From: Escherichia coli
Lineage (GTDB): Bacteria; Pseudomonadota; Gammaproteobacteria; Enterobacterales; Enterobacteriaceae
Reading direction: 5' to 3' (one strand)
NCBI RefSeq assembly: GCF_001677475.2
Contig: NZ_CP015229.1
DNA: 64,000 bases
Part shown: piece by piece, positions 20,499 through 23,400 of the stretch
Layout: each line of letters begins with the position of its first letter
How positions within the stretch are numbered: position 1 is the stretch's first letter
Position numbers: made by a program

Positions 20499-23400
20499 TA
20501 ATTTCTTGCGTTATTTTCGGCACCTTTTATGTAGCGAAGGTGCCGGAATATATTCTCTTTTGTTACTTATTTGTATACCGTGCACAATATTTTTATCCCT
20601 CATATTTATAGGGTAAATTACCTGTAAAGTAGTGTCTAATTACCCGCCTCGCAAATTCCAGTTTTCAAATATCTATTTCAGGTCAAAAGATTGAATTATT
20701 CACTGGAGACGATTCGTAAATTCGCTGGATTTTTGACTAAAGTTTCTTTAGGATTTGTCTCATCGTATGATTAATTACACCAATCGTTCAACGTCTTGCT
20801 GATAAGTGATGACGATTATATGAGGTTAGCAATGCCTTCTGGAAATCAGGAACCCCGCCGCGATCCTGAATTAAAACGTAAAGCCTGGCTGGCGGTTTTT
20901 CTTGGTTCTGCACTTTTCTGGGTGGTTGTCGCACTGCTGATTTGGAAAGTGTGGGGATAACTATGGTCGGTCAGGAGCAACTGGAGTCGTCACCATTATG
21001 CCAGCATAGTGACAATGAACCAGAAACGAAACGGGAATGTTCCGTCGTTATTCCAGACGACTGGCAACTAACATCGCAGCAGCAAGCCTTTATAGAACTG
21101 TTTGCTGAAGACGATCAGCCGAAACAATAATTATCATCATTTTTATTACCCATTTTTAATGAATTAAAGGGCTTTTAATACACCGCAGCAATAACAGGTT
21201 GAGTTATCTCAACACAAAGTCATAACCGTTAAGGGTGTAGCCTATGATCAACACAAATATGAAATATTGGTCCTGGATGGGCGCGTTTTCTCTGTCGATG
21301 CTCTTCTGGGCCGAACTCCTCTGGATCATTACTCACTGATCCTTGACCCCGCTGCGGCGGCGGTTTTCATTTGCTTTGCCACACGGTTTCTCCTCTTTTA
21401 TCAATTTGGGTTGTTATCAAATCGTTACGCGATGTTTGTGTTATCTTTAATATTCACCCTGAAGAGAATCAGGGCTTCGCAACCCTGTCATTAAGGAGGA
21501 GCTATGTCGTCAACCCTACGAGAAGCCAGTAAGGACACGTTGCAGGCCAAAGATAAAACTTACCACTACTACAGCCTGCCGCTTGCTGCTAAATCACTGG
21601 GCGATATCACCCGTCTACCCAAGTCACTCAAAGTTTTGCTCGAAAACCTGCTGCGCTGGCAGGATGGTAACTCGGTTACCGAAGAGGATATCCACGCGCT
21701 GGCGGGATGGCTGAAAAATGCCCATGCTGACCGTGAAATTGCCTACCGCCCGGCAAGGGTGCTGATGCAGGACTTTACCGGCGTACCTGCCGTTGTTGAT
21801 CTGGCGGCAATGCGCGAAGCGGTTAAACGCCTCGGCGGCGATACTGCAAAGGTTAACCCGCTATCACCGGTCGACCTGGTCATTGACCACTCGGTGACCG
21901 TCGATCGTTTTGGTGATGATGAGGCATTTGAAGAAAACGTACGCCTGGAAATGGAGCGCAACCACGAACGTTATGTGTTCCTGAAATGGGGAAAGCAAGC
22001 GTTCAGTCGGTTTAGCGTCGTGCCGCCAGGCACAGGCATTTGCCATCAGGTTAACCTCGAATATCTCGGCAAAGCAGTGTGGAGCGAATTGCAGGACGGT
22101 GAATGGATTGCTTATCCGGATACACTCGTTGGTACTGACTCGCACACCACTATGATCAACGGCCTTGGCGTGCTGGGGTGGGGCGTGGGTGGGATCGAAG
22201 CAGAAGCCGCAATGTTAGGCCAGCCGGTTTCCATGCTTATCCCGGACGTAGTGGGCTTTAAACTTACCGGAAAATTACGTGAAGGTATTACCGCCACAGA
22301 CCTGGTTCTCACTGTTACCCAAATGCTGCGCAAACATGGCGTGGTGGGGAAATTCGTCGAATTTTATGGTGATGGTCTGGATTCACTACCTCTGGCGGAT
22401 CGCGCCACCATTGCCAATATGTCGCCAGAATATGGTGCCACCTGTGGCTTCTTCCCAATCGATGCTGTAACCCTCGATTACATGCGTTTAAGCGGGCGCA
22501 GCGAAGATCAGGTCGAGTTGGTCGAAAAATATGCCAAAGCGCAGGGCATGTGGCGTAACCCGGGCGATGAACCAATTTTTACCAGTACGTTAGAACTGGA
22601 TATGAATGACGTTGAAGCGAGCCTGGCAGGGCCTAAACGCCCACAGGATCGCGTTGCACTGCCCGATGTACCAAAAGCATTTGCCGCCAGTAACGAACTG
22701 GAAGCGAATGCCACGCATAAAGATCGCCAGCCGGTCGATTATGTTATGAACGGACATCAGTATCAGTTACCTGATGGTGCTGTGGTCATTGCTGCGATAA
22801 CCTCGTGCACCAACACCTCTAACCCAAGTGTGCTGATGGCCGCAGGCTTGCTGGCGAAAAAAGCCGTAACTCTGGGCCTCAAGCGGCAACCGTGGGTCAA
22901 AGCGTCGCTGGCACCGGGTTCGAAAGTCGTTTCTGATTATCTGGCAAAAGCGAAACTGACACCGTATCTCGACGAACTGGGGTTTAACCTTGTGGGATAC
23001 GGTTGTACCACCTGTATTGGTAACTCTGGGCCGCTGCCCGATCCTATCGAAACGGCAATCAAAAAAGGCGATTTAACCGTCGGTGCAGTGCTGTCCGGCA
23101 ACCGTAACTTTGAAGGCCGTATCCATCCGCTGGTTAAAACTAACTGGCTGGCCTCGCCGCCGCTGGTGGTTGCCTATGCGCTGGCGGGAAATATGAATAT
23201 CAACCTGGCTTCTGAGCCTATTGGTCATGATCGTAAAGGCGATCCGGTTTATCTGAAAGATATCTGGCCATCGGCACAAGAAATTGCCCGTGCGGTAGAA
23301 AAAGTCTCCACAGAAATGTTCCGCAAAGAGTACGCAGAAGTTTTTGAAGGCACAGCAGAGTGGAAGGAAATTAACGTCACACGATCCGATACCTACGGCT

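What the first reader, a model, noticed from the sequence alone, without database searches (positions are those of the whole stretch)
20502..20831. 330-bp AT-rich non-coding stretch between cysB and ymiA, followed by the tight ymiA-yciX small-protein pair
A long AT-rich intergenic stretch follows a candidate cysB terminator hairpin (CGGCACCTT...AAGGTGCCG at about 20518-20545). It precedes two very small genes packed 3 nt apart (42 and 55 aa). It could hold promoters for the small-protein pair or an sRNA.
Basis: inference. Interest (0 to 1): 0.25.

Follow-up and report, generated by a model that had tools for sequence, protein, structure and literature searches.

The report
cysB terminator plus ymiA promoter region
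The AT-rich gap after cysB in this E. coli window is an ordinary, already-studied intergenic region: a cysB 3' hairpin, a stretch of non-conserved filler, and a deeply conserved promoter/operator region for the small-protein operon ymiA-yciX-ymiC, with no sign of a small RNA gene.

Summary
Positions 20502-20831 are non-coding at 34.5% GC, against 50.9% for the window, and the hairpin sits at the stated coordinates. The locus is E. coli topA-cysB-ymiA-yciX-ymiC-acnA.

A 14-taxon comparison splits the gap into four parts:
- A cysB 3' hairpin (20515-20548) that is conserved as a structure, with compensatory changes at 5 of 10 pairs.
- About 80 nt of non-conserved filler. An IS1 element is inserted here in some strains.
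- A conserved block of about 135 nt that ends in a weak sigma-70-type promoter: -35 TGGATT at 20726-31, an invariant 17-nt spacer, and -10 TAGGAT at 20749-54. A 14-bp RcsB-type box, TAGGATTTGTCTCA (20749-62), overlaps the -10.
- A 5' UTR of roughly 60-70 nt.

Published work already covers the function. The region drives PhoQ-dependent, low-Mg2+-induced transcription of ymiA-yciX-ymiC. The identical box in Salmonella lies on the mapped ymiA start site, and ymiA is lower with RcsB. The gap is also listed as an H-NS-bound "promoter island".

The sRNA idea finds no support: no Rfam hit, no conserved RNA structure, no terminator of its own and no conserved ORF. One point stays open: no convincing PhoP box explains the PhoQ dependence. 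Interest is low and the region is already known.

The parts
20515..20548 (+). cysB 3' hairpin, a candidate intrinsic terminator or 3'-end stabiliser. The stem is 13 bp, the loop 8 nt, and it is followed by TATATTCTCTTTTGTT.
   Evidence: Terminator-like scan. Folding energy -19.6 kcal/mol, z -4.2. RNAalifold on 10 taxa gives 10 pairs, 5 of them with compensatory changes. Sequence identity is only 0.47 and the T-run is not conserved.
20549..20626 (.). Non-conserved AT-rich filler.
   Evidence: Mean identity to 9 other enterics is 0.38, against 0.81 for the cysB 3' end. An IS1 element is inserted after position 20586 in strain NRZ14408 with ymiA still intact.
20627..20724 (.). Conserved upstream regulatory block, at about -135 to -37 of the inferred start site. 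The binding factors are unassigned. It includes TCGCAAATT (20649-57), TCAAAAGATTGA (20683-94) and TCGTAAATT (20714-22).
   Evidence: Mean identity 0.77. Alignments. No conserved RNA structure on either strand, z -0.2 to +0.6. ORFs here are not conserved.
20633..20652 (-). Published predicted AtoC site (GCGAGGCGGGTAATTAGACA), reported positive in ChIP with recombinant AtoC.
   Evidence: PMC3118216, site listed at -199 to -180 of ymiA. The sequence was located in the window by reading.
20726..20731 (+). Inferred -35 hexamer TGGATT (3 of 6 matches to the consensus).
   Evidence: CTGGATTT is invariant or nearly so in 14 taxa. It is always 15 nt before TTAGGAT, which gives a 17-nt spacer, while the spacer sequence itself varies.
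20749..20754 (+). Inferred -10 hexamer TAGGAT (4 of 6 matches, with A at position 2 and T at position 6).
   Evidence: It lies at -12 to -7 of the position equivalent to the Salmonella SalCom ymiA start site cited in PMC7913699 Table 2. Conserved in 13 of 14 taxa.
20749..20762 (+). RcsB-type (NarL/FixJ-family) pseudo-palindromic operator TAGGATTTGTCTCA, overlapping the -10 and the start site.
   Evidence: It is the only match to TNRGANNNNTCYNA in the 64-kb window. It is identical to the RcsB motif listed for Salmonella ymiA, with log2 fold change -1.10. 13 of 14 taxa fit the consensus, and the box is a perfect palindrome, TTAGGA-N4-TCCTAA, in Erwinia, Pantoea and CwR94.
20761..20761 (+). Inferred transcription start site, accurate to about 1-2 nt.
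   Evidence: Transferred by alignment from the Salmonella start site at 1765037. Not confirmed for E. coli: the supplements that could be searched held nothing.
20766..20771 (+). E. coli-specific -10-like hexamer TATGAT, a possible secondary promoter.
   Evidence: Read from the sequence. Most other genera have GATGAT; individual taxa have CATGAT, CGTGAT or, in a gapped alignment, GGTGAT.
20762..20819 (+). 5' UTR of ymiA. GAGG at 20822-25 lies 6 nt before the family-conserved ATG at 20832.
   Evidence: Mean identity 0.70. The single-sequence fold is unremarkable, z 0.21. The alignment fold is weak, z -2.2.
20820..20960 (+). ymiA, a small membrane protein. It is 46 aa from ATG 20820; the family-conserved start is ATG 20832 (42 aa).
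   Evidence: RefSeq annotation. NCBIfam NF000536, 96.8 bits. Weaver et al. report the MRLAMP start. Codon-position pattern.
20963..21130 (+). yciX (55 aa), starting 2 nt after the ymiA stop.
   Evidence: RefSeq annotation. No NCBIfam family. Mean DNA identity 0.53, and no yciX gene is called in the Salmonella locus.

Best explanation
The gap is a composite but conventional intergenic region with four parts.

(1) Fourteen nt after the cysB stop codon, a 13-bp GC-rich hairpin marks the cysB 3' end. It acts as an intrinsic terminator of uncertain efficiency, or as a 3'-end stabiliser.

(2) About 80 nt of fast-evolving AT-rich filler follows. It has no detectable function.

(3) The last roughly 200 nt are the control region of the ymiA-yciX-ymiC small-protein operon.
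- About 100 nt is conserved upstream DNA, presumably transcription-factor sites.
- Next comes a weak sigma-70-type promoter: TGGATT, 17 nt, TAGGAT, with a start near 20761.
- A 14-bp RcsB/NarL-family box overlaps the -10 and +1. A bound dimer (RcsB, or a relative such as YjjQ) would block RNA polymerase and repress.

(4) A 5' UTR of 59-71 nt leads into ymiA, and yciX is translationally coupled to ymiA.

Transcription from this region rises at low Mg2+ in a PhoQ-dependent way.

Shown by others: reporter activity and its PhoQ dependence in E. coli; the start site and the RcsB-dependent decrease in Salmonella.
Shown here: the anatomy, the pattern of conservation, the covariation in the hairpin, and the absence of RNA-gene or ORF signals.
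Inferred: the E. coli start-site position, the -35/-10 assignment, repression by occlusion, and termination at the hairpin.
For: Locus identity and annotation.

Hairpin.

Conservation: mean identity to 9 other enterics is 0.38 for the spacer, 0.77 for the upstream block and 0.92 for the core promoter. That last value is higher than cysB (0.81) or acnA (0.83) coding DNA. In all 14 taxa, including Erwiniaceae, CTGGATTT is followed after exactly 15 nt by TTAGGATT..TC, although the spacer sequence varies.

The same 14-mer is the RcsB motif at '1 to -13' of the Salmonella ymiA start site, with log2 fold change -1.10 in RcsB wild type versus null.

There is a precedent for an RcsB box next to a -10 acting as a repressor site, at gadA.

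A reporter carrying the region upstream of ymiA-yciX-ymiC is induced at low Mg2+ and depends on PhoQ; the region just upstream of ymiC is inactive.

YjjQ is listed as a regulator of ymiA.

The gap is listed as a promoter island with H-NS ChIP signal.

An IS1 insertion in the filler leaves the conserved 3' part intact.
Against: No E. coli start site could be retrieved, so the promoter assignment rests on Salmonella plus conservation.

The promoter hexamers are weak, 7 of 12 matches, and the simple scan finds no promoter-like site in the gap.

Binding of RcsB or YjjQ to this site has not been shown; the Salmonella entry comes from a motif scan combined with RNA-seq. The motif count in the window is not above chance on its own: 1 found, 2.25 expected.

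The T-run after the hairpin is poor and not conserved. No 3' end near it was found in the Term-seq supplements that are held.

No convincing PhoP box is present, so the published PhoQ dependence has no cis explanation.
Confidence: 0.8

Rival explanations
1. PhoP activates directly from a degenerate PhoP box inside the gap. One version uses the phased half-sites TGACTA/TCTTTA/TGTCTC (20734-61) with the E. coli-specific -10 TATGAT (20766-71), giving a start near 20778. The other uses the box-like site at 20561-77 with a long 5' UTR.
For: Reporter activity depends on PhoQ. Three sites with 3 mismatches to TGTTTA-N5-TGTTTA lie in the gap on the + strand. TATGAT matches the -10 consensus at 5 of 6 positions.
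Against: Matches with 3 mismatches are common: 72 in the window against 51 expected. The 20734-50 site ends 15 nt before TATGAT, not the 12 nt seen at classical PhoP promoters (own knowledge of phoP and mgtA). TATGAT is not conserved: most other genera have GATGAT, and individual taxa have CATGAT, CGTGAT or, in a gapped alignment, GGTGAT. The 20561-77 site lies in non-conserved filler, and it is a worse match in K-12, the strain the reporter came from, because of the SNP at 20573.
Confidence: 0.2
2. The gap encodes an independent small RNA (Hfq-dependent or otherwise) on either strand.
For: It is a long intergenic region with a highly conserved block. sRNA genes are often found in such places. 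An sRNA family, STnc180, exists 350 nt downstream.
Against: There is no Rfam match in 20502-20831 even at E up to 10, apart from a chance snoRNA hit. No terminator-like site exists other than the cysB hairpin. The conserved block shows no conserved structure on either strand, z between -0.5 and +0.6. Conservation runs straight into the ymiA promoter and 5' UTR. No literature linking ymiA and Hfq was found.
Confidence: 0.04
3. The gap is a 'promoter island': AT-rich DNA that binds RNA polymerase and H-NS at many overlapping pseudo-promoters, yields only abortive or short products, and is essentially silent.
For: It is listed among 78 promoter islands found by PlatProm, with H-NS ChIP signal in two data sets. 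Its GC content is very low.
Against: The same paper says ymiA is 'transcribed normally' and that this is one of only 3 islands not linked to foreign genes. The reporter is active and regulated. The 3' 200 nt are under strong purifying selection at specific positions with fixed spacing, which is unlike generic AT-rich DNA. A simple sigma-70 scan finds no site in the gap. No H-NS 10-mer is present within 2 mismatches.
Confidence: 0.1
4. A small protein is encoded inside the gap, for example the 27-codon ORF at 20691-20774 that lies in the conserved block.
For: The ORF is open in 7 of 11 Enterobacteriaceae sequences compared (Escherichia, Citrobacter, Salmonella, Enterobacter sp. 638).
Against: The frame is broken in Enterobacter hormaechei and Scandinavium. 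There is an internal stop in Franconibacter, and the start codon is lost in Escherichia sp. MOD1. Variable columns by codon position are 16/15/13, so there is no third-position bias. The ymiA control gives 7/4/13. The ORF also lies upstream of the inferred start site.
Confidence: 0.02

Closest known systems
RcsB-repressed promoters with the RcsB box at or next to the -10 or start site (gadA RcsB box; flhDC; the Salmonella ymiA entry in Huesa et al. 2021)
   Same: A 14-bp pseudo-palindrome fits TN(G/A)GA-N4-TC(T/C)NA. Its position over the -10 and +1 implies occlusion. The Salmonella orthologue carries the identical sequence and is lower when RcsB is present.
   Different: No binding assay exists for this site. 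In E. coli the listed regulator is YjjQ, another LuxR/FixJ-type protein. Which family member acts here is unknown.
PhoP-activated small-protein promoters (mgrB, mgtS-mgtT)
   Same: The operon encodes small membrane proteins. It is induced at low Mg2+ and depends on PhoQ in the same reporter set.
   Different: There is no PhoP box with 2 or fewer mismatches at the canonical place, overlapping the -35 and 12 nt before the -10. Regulation may be indirect.
Promoter islands (Panyukov and Ozoline 2013)
   Same: The gap is on their list, is AT-rich and is reported as H-NS-bound.
   Different: It is core-genome DNA rather than horizontally acquired, it is transcribed, and it has position-specific conservation across two bacterial families.
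Rho-independent terminators downstream of regulatory genes
   Same: A GC-rich 13-bp stem-loop lies just after the stop codon, with covariation.
   Different: The U-run is interrupted in E. coli and absent in most relatives. The element may work as a 3'-end protecting hairpin rather than an efficient terminator.

Membership tests
Intrinsic (Rho-independent) terminator | Stable GC-rich stem-loop shortly after the stop codon | tested here: met
   13-bp stem, -19.6 kcal/mol, z -4.2. Compensatory changes at 5 of 10 pairs.
Intrinsic (Rho-independent) terminator | Uninterrupted U-run directly 3' of the stem | tested here: inconclusive
   E. coli has TATATTCT, 5 T in 8, which passes the lax scan. Relatives have no T-run.
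Intrinsic (Rho-independent) terminator | Mapped RNA 3' end at the U-run | tested here: inconclusive
   No 3' end at K-12 coordinates 133486x-133491x in the held Term-seq supplements. Those files may be incomplete.
Sigma-70 promoter | -10 hexamer with A at position 2 and T at position 6, 6-8 nt before a mapped start | tested here: met
   TAGGAT at 20749-54 lies 7 nt before the position equivalent to the Salmonella start site. There is no E. coli start-site data.
Sigma-70 promoter | -35 hexamer at 16-18 nt spacing | tested here: inconclusive
   TGGATT matches at 3 of 6 positions. The spacer is 17 nt and invariant in 14 taxa. The pair falls below the 9-of-12 threshold of the scan.
RcsB box (NarL/FixJ-type operator) | Match to TN(G/A)GA-N4-TC(T/C)NA with pseudo-dyad symmetry | tested here: met
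   Exact match at 20749-62. 13 of 14 taxa fit, and the box is a perfect palindrome in Erwiniaceae. Consensus as given in PMC7913699.
RcsB box (NarL/FixJ-type operator) | Protein binding to the site (EMSA, footprint or ChIP) | not testable with these tools
   No assay for ymiA is reported in PMC7913699.
RcsB box (NarL/FixJ-type operator) | Expression changes with the regulator | not testable with these tools
   Published for Salmonella only: log2 fold change -1.10. YjjQ is listed as regulator in E. coli.
PhoP box / directly PhoP-activated promoter | (T/G)GTTTA-N5-(T/G)GTTTA overlapping the -35, about 12 nt before the -10 | tested here: not met
   The best sites have 3 mismatches. Their spacing to either candidate -10 is wrong, or they lie in non-conserved DNA.
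Small regulatory RNA gene | Known family, or conserved structure plus its own terminator | tested here: not met
   No Rfam hit, no terminator of its own, alignment-fold z about 0 on both strands.
Promoter island | At least 8 predicted start points per 100 bp over at least 300 bp (PlatProm), with RNA polymerase and H-NS occupancy | not tested
   Listed as island 1332795_340 with H-NS mark 'K'. PlatProm is not available here, and the simple scan gives 0 sites in the gap.
Small protein gene inside the gap | Reading frame kept across species, with third-position variation | tested here: not met
   Frames are broken in several taxa and there is no periodicity.

The most novel reading that the evidence does not exclude
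The PhoQ dependence is indirect. The ymiA promoter would be an ancient multi-input switch, conserved since before Enterobacteriaceae and Erwiniaceae split, whose output is set mainly by an RcsB-family operator lying on the -10. Unidentified factors would bind the roughly 100-nt conserved upstream block. Low Mg2+ would then act through envelope or Rcs signalling, H-NS counter-silencing, or PhoP-controlled RpoS stabilisation, rather than through a PhoP box.
Probability: 0.2. Interest if true: 0.35.

Novelty: already known. Interest (0 to 1): 0.12.

Why it matters
It matters little beyond annotation. The genes, the promoter activity of the gap, its PhoQ dependence, the RcsB-type motif at the orthologous Salmonella start site and the "promoter island" label are all published.

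This re-analysis adds three things:
- A base-level map showing which third of the gap is filler and which part is constrained.
- Evidence that the promoter and operator geometry is kept even in Erwinia and Pantoea.
- The observation that no canonical PhoP box accounts for the published PhoQ dependence.

That last point gives anyone studying the YmiA and YmiC small proteins a concrete set of sites to mutate.

Tried and rejected
- sRNA in the gap: rejected on an Rfam scan at E up to 10, a terminator scan and alignment folds of both strands against column shuffles.
- Small ORFs at 20691-20774 and 20632-20694: rejected on broken frames and no codon periodicity.
- The in-frame N-terminal extension of ymiA: it is open in all taxa but shows no third-position bias, so it was not counted as coding.
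- PhoP box: only 3-mismatch matches, badly placed.
- TTGACT at 20733-38 as the -35: rejected. It sits 10 nt before TAGGAT and 27 nt before TATGAT, and it is not conserved in Enterobacter or Erwinia.
- A sigma-54 reading of TGG...TTGAC: rejected by reading the sequence, because the GG-to-GC spacing is wrong.
- Fur, CRP, FNR, CpxR, RstA and IHF consensus comparisons, done by eye: nothing convincing. TCAANNNNTTG at 20683-93 fits only the core of the IHF consensus.
- H-NS 10-mer TCGATAAATT: no match within 2 mismatches in the gap.
- E. coli start-site and 3'-end data: the supplements of Conway 2014, Ettwiller 2016, Yan 2018 and Adams 2021 either were not held or held nothing for these coordinates. 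Thomason 2015, Wiebe 2015 and Hemm 2008 are not held.
- The genome-contig scan with YciX returned only 2 loci. Orthologous loci were obtained instead through YmiA homologues.
- Matches in the 'plasmids' collection are mislabelled chromosomes or chromosome fragments.
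Full report
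**Locus and observation**

The window is E. coli. A 601-nt query around the finding matches 5421 of 5426 complete genomes at 95-100% identity. RefSeq annotation gives topA, cysB (19527-20501), ymiA, yciX (20963-21130), ymiC (21244-21339) and acnA (from 21504), all on the + strand.

The stretch 20502-20831 is non-coding and 34.5% GC, against 50.9% for the window. Only 0.5% of 330-nt windows are as AT-rich.

Two details need adjusting. First, RefSeq and initiation-complex ribosome profiling start E. coli ymiA at ATG 20820 (MRLAMP, 46 aa), which makes the gap 318 nt. The NCBIfam profile covers residues 5-46, and third-codon-position variation begins only there. Second, two bases separate the ymiA stop from the yciX ATG. 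Within the gap the window differs from K-12 at three positions: 20573, 20656 and 20812.

**Anatomy from comparison**

YmiA homologues occur in Escherichia, Citrobacter, Salmonella, Enterobacter, Franconibacter, Scandinavium, Erwinia and Pantoea. I fetched 12 orthologous loci through them and used one more Escherichia locus. All 12 fetched through YmiA keep the order topA-cysB-ymiA-...-acnA, with a cysB-ymiA gap of 294-492 nt at 30-39% GC in the ten loci where it was measured.

Alignment splits the E. coli gap sharply. Mean identity to nine other Enterobacteriaceae:

| Segment | Mean identity |
|---|---|
| cysB 3' end | 0.81 |
| Hairpin | 0.47 |
| Spacer 20549-20626 | 0.38 |
| Upstream block 20627-20724 | 0.77 |
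| Core promoter 20725-20762 | 0.92 |
| 5' UTR 20763-20831 | 0.70 |
| ymiA | 0.77 |
| yciX | 0.53 |
| acnA 5' end | 0.83 |

So the AT-rich 5' third is filler, and the 3' 200 nt are more constrained than the neighbouring coding DNA. An IS1 element sits after position 20586 in strain NRZ14408, with ymiA and the conserved block intact. This agrees with the filler being dispensable.

**The hairpin**

The 13-bp stem at 20515-20548 folds at -19.6 kcal/mol, z -4.2. Its sequence is poorly conserved but its structure is kept. RNAalifold on ten taxa gives ten pairs, five of them with compensatory double changes, for example GGCACC/GGTGCC against GGTATC/GATACC. It is therefore a real RNA element at the cysB 3' end.

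The T-run that follows is interrupted in E. coli and absent in relatives. I also found no mapped 3' end in the Term-seq supplements that are held. Whether it terminates efficiently or mainly protects the 3' end is not settled.

**Promoter and operator**

Across all 14 taxa, CTGGATTT is followed after exactly 15 nt by TTAGGATT..TC. The intervening sequence varies, strongly so in Erwiniaceae. That is the signature of -35 and -10 elements held 17 nt apart: TGGATT at 20726-31 and TAGGAT at 20749-54.

Huesa et al. (PMC7913699, Table 2) list for Salmonella SL1344 ymiA the motif TGAGACAAATCCTA on the + strand. In gene orientation this reads TAGGATTTGTCTCA. They place it at '1 to -13' of the SalCom start site, with log2 fold change -1.10 for RcsB wild type versus null. 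The identical 14-mer is at window 20749-62, which puts the equivalent start site at about 20761, 7 nt after TAGGAT.

This 14-mer is the only match in the 64-kb window to TNRGANNNNTCYNA. The count alone is not above chance, since 2.25 are expected. The weight comes from its position, its invariance, and the fact that in Erwinia, Pantoea and CwR94 it is a perfect palindrome, TTAGGA-N4-TCCTAA.

A box lying over the -10 and +1 predicts repression by occlusion. [quoted passage not shown] A table in PMC10100675 lists YjjQ, another LuxR/FixJ-type protein, as the regulator of E. coli ymiA. No binding assay for this site was found.

The hexamers are weak, 7 of 12 matches, and the simple promoter scan reports nothing in the gap. 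That fits a promoter needing activation.

**What is already published about function**

Vellappan et al. (PMC11429745) found YmiA and YmiC among 17 small proteins induced at low Mg2+. They also showed that a single-copy YFP reporter carrying the region upstream of ymiA-yciX-ymiC is induced at low Mg2+ and depends on PhoQ. The region just upstream of ymiC is inactive.

Panyukov and Ozoline list the cysB/ymiA gap as one of 78 'promoter islands', with H-NS ChIP signal in two data sets. It is one of only three islands not linked to foreign genes, and they describe ymiA as transcribed normally.

An AtoC site was predicted at 20633-52 and reported positive by ChIP with recombinant AtoC.

**Tests of the sRNA and ORF ideas**

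Rfam at a permissive threshold finds nothing meaningful in the gap. The only real hit at the locus is STnc180 at 21171-21374 (193 bits), downstream and overlapping ymiC. There is no terminator-like site other than the cysB hairpin.

Alignment folds of the conserved block give z between -0.5 and +0.6 on either strand. The 5' UTR gives a weak -2.2, and its single-sequence fold is unremarkable.

The 27-codon and 20-codon ORFs inside the conserved block are broken in several taxa and show no codon periodicity. The conservation is therefore at the DNA level, as expected for protein-binding sites.

**The open point**

No convincing PhoP box explains the PhoQ dependence. The best matches to TGTTTA-N5-TGTTTA have three mismatches. 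One, at 20561-77, lies in non-conserved filler and is a worse match in K-12 because of the SNP at 20573. The others, at 20734-50 and 20745-61, overlap the promoter spacer and -10 and are wrongly spaced for either candidate -10.

E. coli has a better -10-like hexamer, TATGAT, at 20766-71. It is species-specific: most other genera have GATGAT, and individual taxa have CATGAT, CGTGAT or, in a gapped alignment, GGTGAT.

Direct PhoP action is possible but unsupported; I put it at about 0.2. Indirect routes are plausible: the Rcs system, H-NS counter-silencing, or RpoS stabilised through PhoP-controlled IraM. The last of these is from my own knowledge and is untested here. No factor is assigned to the conserved upstream block.

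**Verdict**

The promoter and terminator readings are supported, and the sRNA reading is not. Everything essential is already in the literature or the annotation, so the finding is ordinary and of low interest. The useful residue is a base-level map of the control region and the note that the PhoQ dependence lacks a cis element.

Noticed in passing
window 21171-21374 (+): Strong Rfam match to the enterobacterial sRNA family STnc180 (193 bits, E 2e-41). It spans the whole ymiC small-protein gene (21244-21339) and ends at a terminator-like hairpin (21349-63). The 'sRNA' therefore looks like the ymiC mRNA, or part of the long acnA leader.
   Followed up: partly
window 21433-21449 (+): TGTTTGTGTTATCTTTA has 2 mismatches to the PhoP box consensus, one of seven 2-mismatch matches in the window that are its closest to that consensus. 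It lies 55-71 nt upstream of the acnA ATG at 21504. No link to PhoP was checked.
   Followed up: no
window about 20586; L017 487-1260: An IS1B element is inserted in the non-conserved part of the cysB-ymiA gap in strains NRZ14408 and LT599825. It leaves the conserved promoter block and ymiA intact.
   Followed up: yes
window 20796-20831 and aligned loci: Most relatives have an in-frame ATG 11 codons upstream of the conserved ymiA start, annotated as 53 aa. In E. coli, Escherichia sp. MOD1 and Scandinavium that codon is CTG. The extension shows no third-position bias, so its translation is doubtful.
   Followed up: partly
window 20963-21130; L007: yciX is poorly conserved (mean DNA identity 0.53) and matches no NCBIfam family. 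No yciX or ymiC gene is called in the Salmonella locus that was fetched.
   Followed up: no
L003 (NZ_JAHZMP010000227.1, 454 bp): A 454-bp contig in a Terrisporobacter mayombei assembly encodes YciX at 98% identity. This is most likely E. coli contamination of that assembly.
   Followed up: no
window 19221-19378 (+): Sub-threshold Rfam match to STnc430 (26.8 bits against a gathering score of 47). It covers the topA 3' end and its terminator hairpin (19345-68), upstream of cysB.
   Followed up: no
window 21361 and 19471: Single-base indels relative to K-12. One is an extra C in the GC-rich hairpin after ymiC. The other is an extra G in the inverted repeat upstream of cysB, which is shared with strain SLK172.
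   Followed up: partly
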